Assembly (NCBI RefSeq): GCF_050920415.1
Contig: NZ_CP169309.1
Reading direction: 5' to 3' (one strand)
Source: Escherichia coli
GTDB taxonomy: Bacteria; Pseudomonadota; Gammaproteobacteria; Enterobacterales; Enterobacteriaceae
Length of the DNA: 64,000 bases
In this document: one piece after another, positions 9,201-15,200 of the stretch
Layout of the letters: every line of letters begins with the position of its first letter
Numbering within the stretch: the first letter of the stretch is position 1
Position numbers: made by a program

Positions 9201-12200
9201 ATGGATGGTCAAATAATTTCCTCAATGCCGCCTTTACCTCGGCATTAATGTTTGGTTATTTCATCGGCTCTCTTACCGGTGGGTTCATCGGTGATTATTT
9301 TGGGCGGCGCAGGGCTTTTCGCATAAATCTTCTCATCGTCGGTATTGCGGCAACAGGGGCCGCTTTTGTCCCTGATATGTACTGGCTCATTTTCTTTCGC
9401 TTCCTGATGGGCACAGGAATGGGGGCGCTGATTATGGTTGGCTATGCTTCGTTTACGGAGTTTATCCCCGCGACGGTGCGTGGAAAATGGTCCGCGCGGC
9501 TGTCATTTGTCGGTAACTGGTCGCCCATGCTGTCTGCGGCGATAGGCGTGGTGGTTATCGCTTTTTTTAGTTGGCGGATAATGTTTCTGCTGGGTGGTAT
9601 TGGCATACTGTTAGCCTGGTTTCTCTCAGGTAAATACTTTATTGAGTCGCCTCGATGGTTGGCGGGGAAAGGACAAATCGCAGGTGCAGAAAGCCAACTT
9701 CGTGAAGTAGAGCAGCAAATTGAAAGAGAGAAGAGTGTTCGTTTACCCCCGCTTACTTTGAATCAGAGCAACAGCAAGGCTAACGTAATCAATGGTACTT
9801 TCTGGCTGCTGTTTAAAGGGGAAATGTTACGACGTACATTAGTTGCGATTACTGTTTTAATTGCAATGAACATTTCACTTTATACCATCACCGTATGGAT
9901 ACCGACCATATTTGTTAACTCCGGTATTGATGTTGATAAATCAATATTAATGACTGCTGTTATTATGATTGGCGCTCCGGTAGGTATATTTATTGCGGCA
10001 TTAATTATTGATCATTTTCCTCGTCGATTATTTGGCTCCGCCTTGCTTATTATTATTGCCATGTTAGGCTATATCTATTCAATTCAGACTACAGAGTGGG
10101 CGATTTTAATCTATGGCCTGGTGATGATCTTCTTTTTATACATGTATGTTTGCTTCGCGTCGGCGGTTTATATCCCGGAGCTTTGGCCAACGCATTTACG
10201 CCTGCGCGGTTCGGGTTTCGTTAATGCCGTCGGACGGATCGTCGCGGTCTTCACGCCTTATGGCGTTGCGGCACTATTAACGCATTATGGGTCAATCACG
10301 GTGTTTATGGTGCTTGGCGTGATGTTAGTGCTCTGTGCGCTGGTTCTCTCCATTTTTGGCATCGAAACGCGGAAGGTGTCGCTGGAAGAGATTTCTGAGG
10401 TGAATTAAATCTTTCGTTGATGGCGTCAATTGCCAGATGTACCACTGACGTGTTTTATCTGGCCTACAATGGCAGTACAGAATTGTAGGCCAGCATAAAA
10501 TTACTCCTGCGTCTCTTCCCAGTCTGCCAGCGTATATAGCGTTGCCCCAGCTGCTGACATCTCCATAAACGCGTGCGCACTGTCCTGTGGCTGGATATTC
10601 ACGCCACGACAACCATCGGTAATCACATTAACCTTATAACCTAACTGTAACGCGTCCAGCACGGTAAACTTCACGCAATAGTCAGTAGCCAGGCCCATAA
10701 TGATCAATTCATCGATTTCATGATCGCGTAACCAGTCATCGAGCGTGGTTTTCTGCCGACGGCCGTTATCAAAAAAGGCACTGTAACTGTCAACTAAAGG
10801 ATTTTCGCCTTTATGGAACACCGCTGCGATCGCTTTTTGGTTCAGTAACGGATGTAATTGTGCGCCTTCACTGTTCTGCACACAGTGATCTGGCCAGAAG
10901 GTTTGTGGCAAACCGTCGAGTTGGCCTGGCGTATAAGGCTCTACACCGTGCTGACTGGCAAAACTGCCGTGATTCGCCGGGTGCCAGTCTTGACTGGCGA
11001 TAACCGCTTCACCGCGCGACTGGCACCAGTCAATCAGGCGGTTAGCGACATCCACCGTACTGTCACCTTCCGGCACGGCGAGCGCGCCACCAGCACAGAA
11101 ATCATTTTGTAAATCGACCAGTAACAGGGCGCGAGGGGGCATTGCAGTCTCCTTAATCATCCGGCGTCAGTTCGCCGCGCAGGTTTTGGCTCATGGCCTT
11201 GCGAATGGTTTCAGTATCCAGTTCCTGGCTAAGCAGGTAATGCAGTTTTGTTAGCGTAGCTTCTACTGTCATATCAGCTCCACCAATGACGCCGGCATGG
11301 GCGAGGGCGTTACCGGTGGCATAACCCCCCATGTTCACTTTACCGGACATACATTGTGTCAGGTTGACTACCACAATTCCGCGATCGCTGGCTTCTTGTA
11401 ATTCTTGCAGGAAGGCTTTGTTTTGTGGCGCATTACCCACGCCATATGAGCGCAGAATCAATGCTTTCACCGGTTGGCGCAGAAAATTGCGCACGACGTC
11501 AGCAGAAATCCCCGGATAAATCGTCACTACGCCAATTGGTTGTGGGGTGATTGGATGAACGATCAATTCCCCTTCACCGTGCGGGGCGGGGGGCGTATTC
11601 AAACGACGAATATGGATACCTGCTTCCAGTAACGGAGGAAGGTTTGGAGAGGCAAACGCATCAAAACCATCGGCATGGGCTTTGGTGGTACGGTTGCCAC
11701 GATAAAGTCGATTATTAAAAAAGAGAGTTACTTCGTTGATAGGATAATTCGCCGCAACGTACAACGCATTCAGCAGATTAATTTGTCCGTCAGAGCGTAA
11801 CTCAGCCAGCGGGATTTGTGACCCTGTCACAATGACCGGTTTACCGAGATTCTCGAGCATGAACGACAGCGCAGAGGCGGTATACGCCATCGTGTCGGTG
11901 CCGTGCAGAATGACAAAACCATCATAGTCGTCATAATGCGCTTTAATATCTTCAGCAATATGCTGCCAGTCTTCTGGCGTCATATCTGAAGAGTCCATCA
12001 GCGGCGTATATTCATGAATGGTGAAATCTGGCATCTCCGGGCGATGGAATTCCGGCATCAGCGCCAGTTGGCGTTGTAGATGACCTGACACCGGAATATA
12101 ACCCTGCTCGGAACGCTGCATCCCGATGGTCCCGCCCGTGTAGGCGACGTAAATTGATTTCTTTTGCATGATATTGATATGAATGATATCGAAAGAGCAA

Positions 12201-15200
12201 AAGTATATACGTGAGGGGCAGCGAGCGCACCTGGATACTCTGTGGATATGAGAAAAGTCCGGCAGAACGGAGGGATTAGTGTCCCGCCGGAGAAAAGTGG
12301 TTAATCCTGCAACGCATAGGTTACGGTGGTGACTACGCGTACCGTTTTATTAATCGCCGTAGGATCATCTTCATCACTGCCACTGGCGAAGATCTGGAAC
12401 ACGCCTTGTGAGGCATCGCTAATTGACCCCACCTGGCTACCTGAGTCCGTTGCAAATTGTAATGCTGCGTTGCGTGCATCTTTGGTGGCGGCGGCAATCA
12501 TCTCAGCGCGCAGTGCGCCAATACCATTAAAGCGATAGGCGACTTTGCTCTCAGCGATAGCGCCCTCCGTAGCGACTTGCAGTTCGTTTAATTTCGCGAC
12601 GACTTTTTCGACAGCAGCAACATTATGGGTTTTTATCGTCACTGACCCGTCTGCGTTATAGCGTGGCATTGTGGGATCATCTTTCAGATAAAAGGAATCA
12701 GTTCGCTTGCTTGTCCATTGGCCCAGGGTTATCTCTTTCTCGTTAATCCCCTGAGCATTGAGTTCGGCAACAATTTTTTTCTGCGCGTCTTCCAGTTTCG
12801 GGAACAGTTCGCCGGGTATATTACCCTTAAAGTTAATCGCAATTGTTAATTCTGCCGTATCTGCGCGAACTTCTTTTTCAGAAAGCCCACGCACATTTAC
12901 ATAACGGTTATTGGTTTTTAAATGTTTAACACCATCGCCAACAAAATAACCACAGGCGCTAATCCCCAGTCCGAGGACGATAGCGGCAATTAAAGAGGGG
13001 GCCTTATTCACTGATGACTCCATATCAGATGCTAAATGAGCAAGGGAATGTAGTGGAGAGAGGGAGTGAAAGACAGTCCGATTCAGGAGTGTGGCCGACA
13101 GCATATCGGCCACATTTTTGCAGGATTTAACGCACGTTGGCGCAGGTCAGGCAAAACGCATAACGGTTTTGTGGGTCGTTAAACGCTGCCAGCTTGTCGC
13201 TTTCACTTTTAACGGTAGAGGCTACCGAGGCCAGCGGTGCAGGTAACATGGCCTGGAACGCATCTGGCAACATTGCCCGGACAGAACCAGACATATTGTC
13301 CATCACTTTGTCGAAGAAGGTCGGTTCATCAACGTAGTATTCCAGATGCCACTGTTTCACTTTTGCCAGCTCTGCTGCTTTGGCAACCGCATCATCGAAA
13401 TCCCCGAGACTATCGACCAGCCCGTTAGCTTTTGCATCCTGACCGGTCCAGACGTGGCCCTGGGCGATTTTATCAATCTGCTCCGGCGTCGAATGACGCG
13501 CATCAGCAACCAGCGTGATAAAGCGTTTATAGCCATTCTCAATGCTTAACTGCATCATCTGCTGCGCTTCCGGCGGCAGTGCCTTGGTGATAGAAACATC
13601 CGCCAGCGGTGAAGTTGAGACGCCATCGGTATGAACACCAATCGAATCCAAACTATTTTCTACGGTAGTGACCACGCCGAAGATACCGATAGAACCGGTC
13701 AGGGTGCTGGGGTTAGCCACAATGTAATTAGCTGGCGTGGAAATCCAGTAACCACCAGATGCCGCCATGCCGCCCATCGATACAACCACAGGCTTACCCG
13801 CTGCCCTGGCAGCTGCCAGTTCAGCGCGAATCACTTCAGAGGCGGTAACGCTGCCGCCAGGGCTATTAACACGCAGAACAATCGCTTTCACTTTCGGGTC
13901 AAGGCGAGCGTCGCGGATTTGTGCCGCAGTGGTATCACCGCCAACATTCCCCTGAGTTTCCTCGCCATCCATAATTGCGCCATTCGCGAAGACGACACCG
14001 ATGCTGTCACCGGTATCTGCCGGCGTTTTCAATGCGTAATCGTAATAACTGATGGCGCGATAATTTTTATCAGTCTTACTCCAGCCGAACTCTTTGGTCA
14101 GAGCTTTTTCGATTTCGGCACTTGATGCCAGTGCATCGACCAGCTTGTTTTCCAGCGCATATTTCGCGGTATCGCCACCGGTTTTGGTTAAACCCTCAAG
14201 CAACCCTTGCGCACCAGGGAATACCTGCTGAGCAGGGATCTGCCGGTTAGCGGCAACAGTATTCAGATAGTTTTGCCACAGCTCACCGATCCAGCGGCTG
14301 TCAGCTTCGCGGGCTGCCGGTGACATATCATCACGAATAAACGGTTCAACGGCAGATTTATACGTACCCACGCGGAACACATGGGTGGAAACTTTCAGCT
14401 TATCCAGTAACGATTTGTAGTACAGACCGTTGGTAGCAAAACCGTGCAGATCCACCACGCCTTGTGGAGATAGCCAAATTTTGTTGGCGAAACTGGCGAG
14501 ATAATATTGCCCCTGGCTGTAGTTCTCGCCTATGGCATAAACTGGTTTCCCGCTGTCACGAAACTCTTTCAGGGCTTTGCCGATGTACTGCATAGACGGC
14601 TGGTCGCCGCCTGCGAAGTTTTTCAGATCCATCACGATACCGGTGATATTGCGGTCATCCTTCGCCTGGCGAATGGTGTTGACGATATCAAACAGTGAGT
14701 TTTCCTGCAGACGATCGGAACTGGCACCAAGGAGCTGGCGGCTTAGCTTACTAAACCGCTGAGAACTGTCGGGTTTATCGACGATTACACCAGATATGTC
14801 CAGCAGCAGCGCGCCACGACTGGCCGTTTCTTTCGAATCACCACCACTGACCTGCATCCAGATCCCCACACCAACCAGTACGAGAAAAATAAAGAACAGG
14901 TTAAGTACCATTTCACGGACGAAATTCAGCAGACGCCACGTCCATTTAAAAAATCCGGCAATAAATCGCCAAAGGGTTCGCATGTATTCTCCCAAATTAA
15001 GGTCACACCTGTCACAGGCGCAATAGATGTGGTTATCGTAATGACCCAACCGGCACTTGTCAGCAGGAATTGCGGACTGTGCTGTAACAAAATCCACTCT
15101 CGTGTTAATTTTGTGAATAAATATCATGACAGGAGTTAATCAAATGGATGCACTCGAACTATTGATCAATCGCCGTAGCGCCTCCCGCCTGGCTGAACCT

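What the first reader, a model, noticed from the sequence alone, without database searches (positions are those of the whole stretch)
12170..13126. Extra SIMPL/DUF541-like membrane protein gene between sppA and ansA
The sppA stop to ansA start gap is about 950 bp here and holds a 240-270 codon minus-strand ORF with normal GC and codon usage. It has one N-terminal TM helix and a C-terminal region resembling the SIMPL/DUF541 motif of YggE/BP26-type periplasmic proteins. As I recall K-12, sppA and ansA are adjacent with only a short intergenic region, so this looks like a strain-specific or lineage-specific gene. Its start codon is ambiguous, and a palindrome (GTGGCCGA...TCGGCCAC) lies between the sppA stop and the ORF.
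Basis: partly seen in the sequence, partly recalled or inferred. Interest (0 to 1): 0.55.

Follow-up and report, generated by a model that had tools for sequence, protein, structure and literature searches.

The report
Known SIMPL gene missing from K-12
The extra gene between sppA and ansA is real and encodes a membrane-anchored SIMPL-family protein of unknown function, but it is an old Escherichia gene already annotated in about one in six E. coli genomes and simply deleted in K-12, so it is ordinary.

Summary
The sppA-ansA gap is 957 bp (12170-13126) and carries a minus-strand gene. Its product matches Pfam SIMPL/DUF541 over the whole model (E=3e-18). An AlphaFold model (pLDDT 91) superposes on the Campylobacter jejuni SIMPL-like protein 7C50 and on Brucella BP26.

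K-12 lacks the gene and has a 166-bp gap. Of 5426 complete E. coli genomes, 943 (17%) carry it, always as a single chromosomal copy; every locus inspected is in this slot. Carriers include ST131 and O157:H7. RefSeq already calls it "SIMPL domain-containing protein" (WP_001030438.1).

It is not a strain-specific acquisition:
- The same sppA-SIMPL-ansA order occurs in E. albertii, E. fergusonii, E. whittamii and two unnamed Escherichia species genomes.
- Its synonymous divergence tracks that of the flanking genes.
- dN/dS is 0.05-0.11.

K-12-type genomes carry a clean loss of about 789 bp.

The start codon is settled as GTG at 13011 (236 aa). The upstream ATG is part of a conserved TAAGGAG ribosome-binding site in other species. 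The palindrome is the sppA 3' hairpin, also present in K-12. Here it lacks the U tract, which suggests read-through from sppA.

Function remains unknown, as for the whole family. It is not a YggE orthologue. Low interest; already known.

The parts
12301..13011 (-). Coding sequence of the 236-aa SIMPL-domain protein (GTG start, TAA stop). Identical to RefSeq WP_001030438.1.
   Evidence: ORF. RefSeq annotation of the 100%-identical locus. Pfam SIMPL E=3.2e-18. Same length and GTG start in 5 other Escherichia lineages, dN/dS 0.05-0.11.
12937..12999 (-). Codons for the N-terminal hydrophobic helix (residues 5-25, PSLIAAIVLGLGISACGYFVG). Probably a signal anchor. It contains a lipobox-like ISAC.
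   Evidence: Hydropathy and flanking charges. AlphaFold helix 8-35. The Cys is present in only 6 of 40 homologues.
12316..12900 (-). SIMPL (PF04402) domain, residues 38-232 of the 236-aa protein.
   Evidence: Pfam match to model 1-205/205. Foldseek to 7C50 E=3.6e-16 and to BP26 4HVZ E=1.1e-11. PDB sequence hits 10am E=1e-27 and 7c50 E=4e-26.
13018..13021 (-). Shine-Dalgarno GGAG, 6 nt before the GTG start. It is part of TAAGGAG in other Escherichia species.
   Evidence: Sequence. Alignment of 8 leaders.
13021..13023 (-). In-frame ATG (MESS...), not conserved. It was created by an A-to-T change inside the ribosome-binding site. It is unlikely to be the start.
   Evidence: TATGGAG in E. coli and one related unnamed Escherichia genome, but TAAGGAG/TAAGGAA in 5 other lineages. 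All gene callers give 236 aa.
13090..13114 (-). Here it has no U tract after it.
   Evidence: -17.8 kcal/mol, z=-4.9. The same stem in K-12 and E. fergusonii is followed by AUUAUUUUUU or AUUUUUUU.
12249..12291 (-). Hairpin (12258-12291) plus U-rich tract ACUUUUCUC (12249-12257) just after the SIMPL stop. Likely terminator of the SIMPL or sppA-SIMPL transcript.
   Evidence: -18.3 kcal/mol, z=-4.5. The stem is conserved in related Escherichia lineages.
12301..13089 (.). Segment absent from K-12-type genomes, about 789 bp: the 78-nt leader plus the coding sequence. The exact ends are uncertain by a few bases.
   Evidence: The K-12 intergenic region (166 nt) aligns end to end with the window's 37 nt after the sppA stop joined to the 131 nt after the SIMPL stop.
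13127..14983 (-). sppA (signal peptide peptidase), the upstream neighbour on the same strand.
11153..12169 (-). ansA (asparaginase I), the downstream neighbour on the same strand.

Best explanation
This is a genuine, vertically inherited Escherichia gene for a 236-aa SIMPL/DUF541-domain protein.

**Shown here**
- The gene starts at GTG 13011, behind a conserved TAAGGAG-type ribosome-binding site.
- The protein has one N-terminal hydrophobic helix followed by the two-lobed alpha/beta SIMPL fold.
- The gene occupies the sppA-ansA slot in E. coli, unnamed Escherichia species genomes, E. whittamii, E. albertii and E. fergusonii, and it evolves under purifying selection.
- 83% of complete E. coli genomes, including K-12, lack it. 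They carry a clean excision of about 789 bp covering the leader and coding sequence.

**Inferred**
- The N-terminal helix acts as an uncleaved signal anchor. It tethers the SIMPL domain to the periplasmic face of the inner membrane.
- There the protein acts as a non-enzymatic, probably self-assembling envelope protein. This follows from its relatives: BP26 forms a 16-mer, the full-length C. jejuni homologue was deposited with nine chains, and YggE is named an oxidative stress defence protein.
- Transcription comes largely by read-through from sppA, because the sppA hairpin has no U tract in this allele. It ends at the hairpin plus U-rich tract directly after the gene.
- In the deletion allele the sppA hairpin sits next to a U-rich run and becomes a normal terminator.
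For: **Family and fold**
- Pfam SIMPL match E=3.2e-18 over the full model.
- AlphaFold pLDDT 91. Foldseek gives 7C50 E=3.6e-16 with TM 0.81, and BP26 4HVZ E=1.1e-11.
- PDB sequence hits: 10am E=1e-27 and 7c50 E=4e-26. The 10am alignment runs end to end and includes the N-terminal helix.

**Distribution**
- 943 of 5426 E. coli genomes, one chromosomal copy each; every locus inspected is between sppA and ansA.
- RefSeq name and protein accessions.

**Ancestry**
- Identical synteny in E. albertii and E. fergusonii, in E. whittamii and two unnamed Escherichia species genomes, and in one more enterobacterial metagenome contig.
- Synonymous divergence (dS) of the gene tracks that of sppA and ansA, and dN/dS is 0.05-0.11.
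- No integrase, tRNA or flanking direct repeats.

**Deletion:**

**Start codon:**

**Hairpins and U tracts:**

**Promoter:** no sigma-70-like promoter was found on the minus strand between sppA and the gene.
Against: - The function is not established for any SIMPL protein, and I found no paper on this gene.
- Topology is not settled by sequence. The N-terminal flank carries on average 1 K/R. The 15 residues after the helix carry 3.2 K/R, net +1.5 against +0.9.
- The E. coli protein has a lipobox-like ISAC, so it could be a lipoprotein rather than a helix-anchored protein.
- E. fergusonii has a full terminator between sppA and the gene. An own promoter must therefore exist there, and may exist here too.
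- A leader block (CTCCTGAATCGGACTGTCTTTCAC) is conserved between species and could be that promoter or an operator.
- Distant homologues are never next to an S49 peptidase gene. The sppA adjacency therefore carries no functional information.
Confidence: 0.85

Rival explanations
1. The gene is a recently acquired, strain- or lineage-specific island gene inserted between sppA and ansA by horizontal transfer.
For: - It is absent from K-12 and from 83% of E. coli genomes.
- Outside Escherichia, apart from one enterobacterial contig with the same synteny, the nearest relatives are environmental metagenome proteins at about 50-66% identity, a Phycisphaerales MAG at 54%, and alphaproteobacteria at 33-47%.
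- No Salmonella, Citrobacter or Klebsiella hit was returned.
- Its GC3 is a little lower than that of the neighbouring genes.
Against: - The same slot and orientation are found in five other Escherichia lineages and in one further enterobacterial contig.
- Its dS equals that of the flanking genes in every comparison.
- There are no mobile-element genes, tRNA or target-site repeats.
- The K-12 intergenic region aligns with the two ends of this one, as a deletion would leave it.
- An ancient transfer into the ancestor of the genus is not excluded, but that is not strain-specific.
Confidence: 0.04
2. The protein is a lipoprotein. The N-terminal segment is a signal peptide cleaved by LspA before Cys20 (lipobox GISA|C, Gly at +2). 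The SIMPL domain is then lipid-anchored, probably to the outer membrane.
For: - The sequence L-G-I-S-A-C fits [LVI][ASTVI][GAS]C. It follows an n-region with one Lys and a 13-residue hydrophobic core.
- The Cys is kept in E. coli, E. albertii, E. fergusonii and the contig protein P0007.
Against: - Only 6 of 40 subfamily members have a Cys there. Most have G, M or L instead.
- E. fergusonii has Val at position -1, which the lipobox does not allow.
- The motif just after it, G-[YFW]-F-[IV]-G-D-G, is conserved and would be the start of the mature protein. AlphaFold models it as part of one continuous helix, residues 8-35.
- The C. jejuni homologue aligns through this helix without a Cys.
Confidence: 0.2
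3. It is a second YggE: a functional duplicate of the K-12 oxidative stress defence protein, working in the same way.
For: - Both belong to the same Pfam family.
- The only NCBIfam model hit is the YggE equivalog model NF008299, at E=5e-4.
Against: - It scores 19.5 bits against a curated cut-off of 249.
- It has a membrane helix where YggE has a cleaved signal peptide (YggE's signal peptide is from my own knowledge).
- Its closest solved relatives are the C. jejuni proteins, not BP26-type or YggE-type proteins.
Confidence: 0.1
4. It is a decaying or non-functional ORF that happens to remain open in some lineages.
For: - Most E. coli do well without it.
- It evolves 3-6 times faster at non-synonymous sites than sppA or ansA.
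- A 220-aa variant exists (P0002).
Against: - dN/dS is 0.05-0.11 over divergences up to dS 1.7.
- Length and start codon are identical in six lineages.
- All 60 sampled records are annotated as an intact CDS.
- The ribosome-binding site is conserved.
Confidence: 0.02

Closest known systems
Campylobacter jejuni SIMPL-like protein (PDB 7C50/7C51; full-length 231-aa chain in PDB 10AM, deposited as 'Periplasmic protein')
   Same: - Best sequence match among solved structures: E=1e-27 and 4e-26 with the single sequence, 4e-60 and 2e-57 with the profile.
- Best fold match: Foldseek E=3.6e-16, TM 0.81, 32% identity.
- Same length and the same N-terminal hydrophobic helix.
- Same conserved motifs, VxVxGxxExxVxAD and MIxxATxxARxxAxxFAxDS...G.I..AsQG.F.
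   Different: - About 32-35% identity, and from a different phylum.
- No Cys in its helix.
- Its function is also unknown to me, and I found no paper in the library.
- Entry 10AM has nine chains of this sequence. I could not determine the nature of that assembly.
Brucella BP26/Omp28 (PDB 4HVZ)
   Same: - Same Pfam family and the same two-domain fold (Foldseek E=1.1e-11; profile E=1e-5).
- Also an envelope protein.
   Different: - 18% identity, with poor global superposition (TM 0.5).
- BP26 is a soluble periplasmic protein with a cleaved signal peptide that forms a 16-mer barrel (own knowledge of the 2013 structure paper).
- The oligomeric state was not tested here.
E. coli YggE (NCBIfam NF008299, oxidative stress defence protein)
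   Same: Same Pfam family. It is the only SIMPL protein of K-12 that I know of (own knowledge).
   Different: 19.5 bits against a cut-off of 249. It is a distant paralogue, not an orthologue, with a different N-terminal export signal and a different locus.
RefSeq WP_001030438.1 / WP_001030441.1 'SIMPL domain-containing protein' of E. coli ST131 and O157:H7
   Same: WP_001030438.1 is the protein annotated at the 100%-identical locus and in the ST131 record examined. The O157:H7 allele is 97.5% identical at the DNA level, in the same slot.
   Different: None. This is the same gene, already catalogued but not characterised.

Membership tests
Pfam SIMPL / DUF541 (PF04402) | Significant match to the family HMM over most of the model | tested here: met
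   E=3.2e-18, 67.2 bits, residues 42-236 of the 240-aa form against model positions 1-205 of 205. All 119 listed homologues but one short fragment carry PF04402.
Pfam SIMPL / DUF541 (PF04402) | Two-lobed alpha/beta fold as in BP26 and the C. jejuni SIMPL-like protein | tested here: met
   AlphaFold pLDDT 91, pTM 0.71. Foldseek: 7C50 E=3.6e-16, TM 0.81 by target; 4HVZ E=1.1e-11.
Pfam SIMPL / DUF541 (PF04402) | Export to the cell envelope through an N-terminal signal | tested here: inconclusive
   An N-terminal hydrophobic segment preceded by one K/R is present in 37 of 40 subfamily members. Cleavage, lipidation and orientation cannot be decided from sequence. The K/R count is higher after the helix (3.2 against 1.0).
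Pfam SIMPL / DUF541 (PF04402) | Ring- or barrel-like homo-oligomer (BP26 16-mer) | not testable with these tools
   Only monomer prediction is available. PDB 10AM holds nine chains of the C. jejuni homologue, but the assembly could not be inspected.
YggE orthologues (NCBIfam NF008299, equivalog) | Score at or above the curated whole-protein cut-off of 249 bits | tested here: not met
   19.5 bits, E=5e-4.
Membrane-anchored SIMPL subgroup typified by the C. jejuni SIMPL-like protein | End-to-end similarity, including the N-terminal helix and the G-x-F-I-G-D-G and AEMIAAATKDARNAALQFA motifs | tested here: met
   phmmer against 10am: residues 9-236 align with 8-231, E=1e-27. The 40-sequence alignment has 25 invariant columns.
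Bacterial lipoproteins | Lipobox [LVI][ASTVI][GAS]C at the end of the signal peptide, conserved among orthologues | tested here: inconclusive
   ISAC is present in E. coli and E. albertii and ITAC in the contig protein P0007. E. fergusonii has ITVC, which breaks the rule. There is no Cys in 34 of 40 homologues.
Genomic island / mobile element cargo | Integrase or transposase, tRNA or att site, flanking direct repeats, patchy location | tested here: not met
   No such ORFs in 9500-15500. Only short chance-level repeats. A single chromosomal copy in all 943 carriers, and the same slot in every locus inspected.
Anti-phage defence systems (PADLOC) | Match to any PADLOC protein model | tested here: not met
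   0 families at E<=0.1.

The most novel reading that the evidence does not exclude
The membrane-anchored SIMPL protein is co-transcribed with signal peptide peptidase SppA and works with it at the inner membrane, for example in clearing or buffering membrane-embedded peptides under envelope stress. Its presence or absence would then be an ancient polymorphism maintained by selection in E. coli. It is retained in ST131 and O157:H7 and lost in K-12-like lineages. The intergenic DNA at the deletion junction is as diverged between the two alleles as between species.
Probability: 0.08. Interest if true: 0.4.

Novelty: already known. Interest (0 to 1): 0.12.

Why it matters
It matters little for discovery. 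The gene is catalogued in RefSeq under the correct family name and sits in two of the most sequenced E. coli lineages, ST131 and O157:H7.

Three modest points remain:

- It is a clean example of a K-12 blind spot: an ancestral Escherichia gene that the laboratory strain has lost, so nobody has characterised it.
- The SIMPL/DUF541 family still has no established mechanism, so any tractable E. coli member is a possible entry point.
- The start codon is fixed, and terminator logic is proposed for the two alleles. This may help anyone who wants to clone or delete the gene.

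Tried and rejected
**Literature.** Eight full-text searches found nothing on this gene, on the C. jejuni SIMPL-like protein, or on PDB entry 10AM. They covered SIMPL, DUF541, YggE, BP26, cjSLP, 7C50, the WP accession numbers, guessed O157 locus tags, and nonamer plus Campylobacter. A C. jejuni flagellar motor preprint that I opened on suspicion had no evident connection; only its outline was read.

**Function from gene neighbourhood.** Five distant homologues sit in five unrelated contexts, none next to an S49 peptidase gene. 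I therefore dropped the idea of a conserved sppA-SIMPL module.

**Defence-system reading.** No PADLOC hit.

**RNA element in the gap.** No Rfam hit at E<=1.

**Mobile-element reading.** There are no meaningful repeats. The 10-nt perfect inverted repeat that brackets the K-12-missing segment is about what chance gives, roughly 0.6 expected in 1.15 kb by my own estimate. It is not kept in E. albertii or E. fergusonii.

**Inverted hairpin.** I first thought the sppA hairpin was inverted relative to K-12. Alignment with E. fergusonii shows instead that the stem is the same and only the U tract differs.

**Promoter hunting.** The consensus scan found nothing on the minus strand. My by-eye sigma-70 and sigma-E candidates were poor, so I make no claim for them.

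**Failed call.** A request for the Sakai record failed on a range limit. I used Xuzhou21 and an ST131 record instead.

**Topology.** The positive-inside count was ambiguous.

Full report
**What is in the sequence**

On the minus strand the order is sppA (13127-14983), a 957-bp gap (12170-13126), then ansA (11153-12169). The gap holds one long minus-strand ORF that ends at 12301. Its possible starts are GTG 13113 (270 aa), ATG 13023 (240 aa) and GTG 13011 (236 aa).

GC is 47.8% and GC3 is 46%. Both are slightly below sppA, ansA and pncA (50-52% GC, 51-55% GC3) but unremarkable.

As RNA on the sppA strand it folds into an 11-bp stem at 13090-13114, at -17.8 kcal/mol, and no shuffle folds as well.

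**Is it a gene, and where does it start?**

The 240-aa form matches Pfam SIMPL (PF04402, DUF541) at E=3.2e-18 over model positions 1-205 of 205.

The ORF is exactly 711 nt and begins with GTG in five other genomes: E. albertii, E. fergusonii, E. whittamii and two unnamed Escherichia species genomes. Against the window, dN/dS is 0.05-0.11, and synonymous divergence runs up to 1.7. The gene is thus real and constrained.

An alignment of eight leaders shows that the ATG at 13023 is not conserved. The E. coli sequences and one related unnamed Escherichia genome read TATGGAGTCATCAGTG. The other five lineages read TAAGGAG or TAAGGAA at that place. That is a textbook ribosome-binding site, six bases before the GTG. 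In one metagenomic relative the start is an ATG, with a longer spacer after the site.

The start is therefore GTG 13011 and the protein is 236 aa, as RefSeq annotates it (WP_001030438.1).

**What the protein looks like**

- Residues 5-25 (PSLIAAIVLGLGISACGYFVG) are hydrophobic and preceded by a single Lys. This pattern occurs in 37 of 40 subfamily members.
- With a 40-sequence alignment, AlphaFold gives pLDDT 91. It shows a long N-terminal helix (8-35) and a two-lobed alpha/beta domain.
- Foldseek against the PDB puts the C. jejuni SIMPL-like protein 7C50 first (E=3.6e-16, TM 0.81 by target, 32% identity). Brucella BP26 (4HVZ) is second (E=1.1e-11). Nothing else is convincing.
- By sequence the closest solved chains are 10am_A ("Periplasmic protein", 231 aa, nine chains in the entry, E=1e-27) and 7c50_A (E=4e-26). 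These two are near-identical to each other. The 10am alignment includes the N-terminal helix.
- BP26 is reached only with the profile, at E=1e-5.
- The NCBIfam equivalog model for YggE scores 19.5 bits against a cut-off of 249.

The protein therefore belongs to the SIMPL family, in the membrane-anchored subgroup typified by the C. jejuni protein. It is not a YggE orthologue.

Invariant residues cluster in two blocks: VxVxGxxExxVxAD, and MIAxATxxARxxAxxFAxDxxxxxG...AxQGxF...RVV. Nothing in them resembles a catalytic motif that I recognise.

**Anchor and topology**

The E. coli protein contains ISAC, which fits a lipobox. However, only 6 of 40 homologues have a Cys there, and E. fergusonii has ITVC, which breaks the rule. 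The motif that follows the Cys (G-Y/F-F-I/V-G-D-G) is conserved and is modelled as part of the same helix.

I therefore favour an uncleaved signal anchor. A lipoprotein remains possible for E. coli itself.

The positive-inside count is ambiguous: 1.0 K/R before the helix against 3.2 in the 15 residues after it, net +0.9 against +1.5. The periplasmic orientation is inferred from the family, not shown.

**Distribution**

A 1.5-kb query across the locus matches 5425 of 5426 complete E. coli genomes, but only 943 cover it fully. The gene alone is found in those same 943 genomes, once each and always on the chromosome.

- 585 copies are at least 99% identical. The sampled records include ST131 strains, and one of these carries the identical protein WP_001030438.1.
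- 358 copies are 95-99% identical. These include O157:H7 and O145 strains with WP_001030441.1.
- Every sampled record already carries the annotation "SIMPL domain-containing protein".
- K-12 (MC1061) has sppA and ansA 166 bp apart.

It is also far from strain-specific.

**Gain or loss?**

The order sppA-SIMPL-ansA occurs in several other genomes:

- E. albertii, protein 86% identical.
- E. fergusonii, 69-70% identical.
- E. whittamii and two unnamed Escherichia species genomes, 92-96% identical.
- A metagenomic enterobacterial contig whose SppA is 90% identical to this one.

In each comparison the synonymous divergence of the SIMPL gene is close to that of sppA and ansA. For E. albertii, for example, it is 1.20 against 0.70 and 0.71. 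For E. fergusonii it is 1.72 against 1.63 and 2.54. This is what co-inheritance predicts.

No integrase, transposase, tRNA or flanking direct repeat is present.

The K-12 intergenic region (166 nt) aligns end to end with two pieces of the window joined together. These are the 37 nt from the sppA stop to the end of the hairpin, and the 131 nt after the SIMPL stop, 168 nt in all. K-12-type genomes therefore carry a clean loss of about 789 bp (window 12301-13089), which removed the 78-nt leader and the coding sequence. A CCAC occurs at both ends, so a microhomology-mediated deletion is plausible. This last point is inference.

All sampled empty alleles span 707-710 bp in their records, which fits a single deletion allele.

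The roughly 120 nt around the junction are only 66-68% identical between the window and K-12. The flanking genes are 97.1% identical and the 49 nt before the ansA start are 96% identical. The K-12 version is about as far from the window as E. albertii is (74%). Either the deletion allele is old, or the DNA was reshaped after the loss. I did not resolve which.

Outside the Enterobacteriaceae the nearest relatives are environmental: metagenome proteins at 50-59% identity, a Phycisphaerales MAG at 54%, and alphaproteobacteria at 33-47%. No Salmonella, Citrobacter or Klebsiella protein was returned. An ancient transfer into the ancestor of Escherichia and its close relatives is therefore possible.

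**Expression signals**

In this allele the sppA hairpin is followed by ACUCCUGAAUC, with no U tract. In K-12 the same stem is followed by AUUAUUUUUU, and in E. fergusonii by AUUUUUUU. No sigma-70-like promoter was found on the minus strand between sppA and the gene.

Directly after the SIMPL stop there is a hairpin (12258-12291, -18.3 kcal/mol, z=-4.5) followed by ACUUUUCUC.

The simplest reading is that in E. coli the gene is transcribed at least partly by read-through from sppA and terminates at 12249-12291. In the deletion allele the sppA hairpin acquired a U-rich neighbour and acts as the terminator. All of this is inferred.

There are two cautions. E. fergusonii must use an own promoter, since it has a full terminator between the genes. 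And a leader block (CTCCTGAATCGGACTGTCTTTCAC) is conserved between species and could be that promoter or a regulator site.

**Function**

I found no experimental work on this gene or on its C. jejuni relative.

Gene neighbourhood gives no help. Five distant homologues lie in five unrelated contexts, and none is beside an S49 peptidase gene. There is no PADLOC hit and no Rfam element in the gap.

My committed guess is a non-enzymatic, self-assembling envelope protein tethered to the periplasmic face of the inner membrane, with a stress-protective role. It rests on family analogy only: the BP26 16-mer, the nine chains in 10AM, and the name given to YggE. I would put it at roughly 30%.

The statements about identity, start codon, distribution and evolutionary history are well supported.

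**Verdict**

But this is an ancestral Escherichia gene lost from most E. coli, already annotated under the right family name in hundreds of genomes, and without unusual sequence features. It is ordinary: already known, low interest.

Noticed in passing
window 13090-13126, compared with L002 3395-3436 and L006 3866-3925: The sppA 3' hairpin keeps the same stem in both alleles. It has a U tract only where no gene follows (K-12) or in E. fergusonii. In SIMPL-carrying E. coli, E. albertii and E. whittamii the U tract is missing. This suggests sppA terminator strength co-varies with the presence of the downstream gene.
   Followed up: partly
window 12170-12300 and 13090-13126, against the K-12 intergenic region: The roughly 120 nt next to the deletion junction are only 66-68% identical between the two E. 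coli alleles, whereas sppA and ansA are 97.1% identical. The K-12 version is as far from the window as E. albertii is. Either the presence/absence polymorphism is old, or the DNA was remodelled quickly after the loss.
   Followed up: partly
window 12303-12312 and 13118-13127: A perfect 10-nt inverted repeat (AATCCTGCAA / TTGCAGGATT) sits at the SIMPL stop and just after the sppA stop. It brackets almost exactly the segment missing from K-12. About 0.6 such repeats are expected by chance in this stretch (my own estimate). It is kept in close relatives of E. coli but not in E. albertii or E. fergusonii.
   Followed up: partly
window 13022 (minus strand, inside the ribosome-binding site): E. coli alleles read TATGGAG where other Escherichia species read TAAGGAG. 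The change weakens the Shine-Dalgarno sequence and creates an in-frame ATG 12 nt upstream of the conserved GTG start.
   Followed up: yes
window 13053-13076 (minus strand leader): The block CTCCTGAATCGGACTGTCTTTCAC is conserved from E. coli to E. fergusonii, and partly in a more distant enterobacterial contig, although the surrounding leader is not. It is a candidate promoter or operator. No sigma-70 consensus was found.
   Followed up: no
PDB entry 10am (C. jejuni homologue): A full-length (231 aa) chain of the C. jejuni SIMPL-like protein is deposited with nine copies under the name 'Periplasmic protein'. It is absent from the Foldseek PDB copy, which ends 2026-04-08, so it is probably newer. 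No paper was found. It may show how this subgroup assembles in the membrane.
   Followed up: partly
search results (E. coli genome collection): - Strain EH2252 (NZ_AP027176.1) matches only 32% of the locus, in two places, so something else may interrupt the slot there.
- Two matches lie on plasmids.
- One genome of 5426 has no match at all.
   Followed up: no
window 13127-15127 and 10501-11160: The mechanical ORFs of sppA (666 aa) and pncA (219 aa) extend upstream of the annotated starts (618 and 213 aa). This is ordinary start-codon overrun, not extra coding sequence.
   Followed up: no
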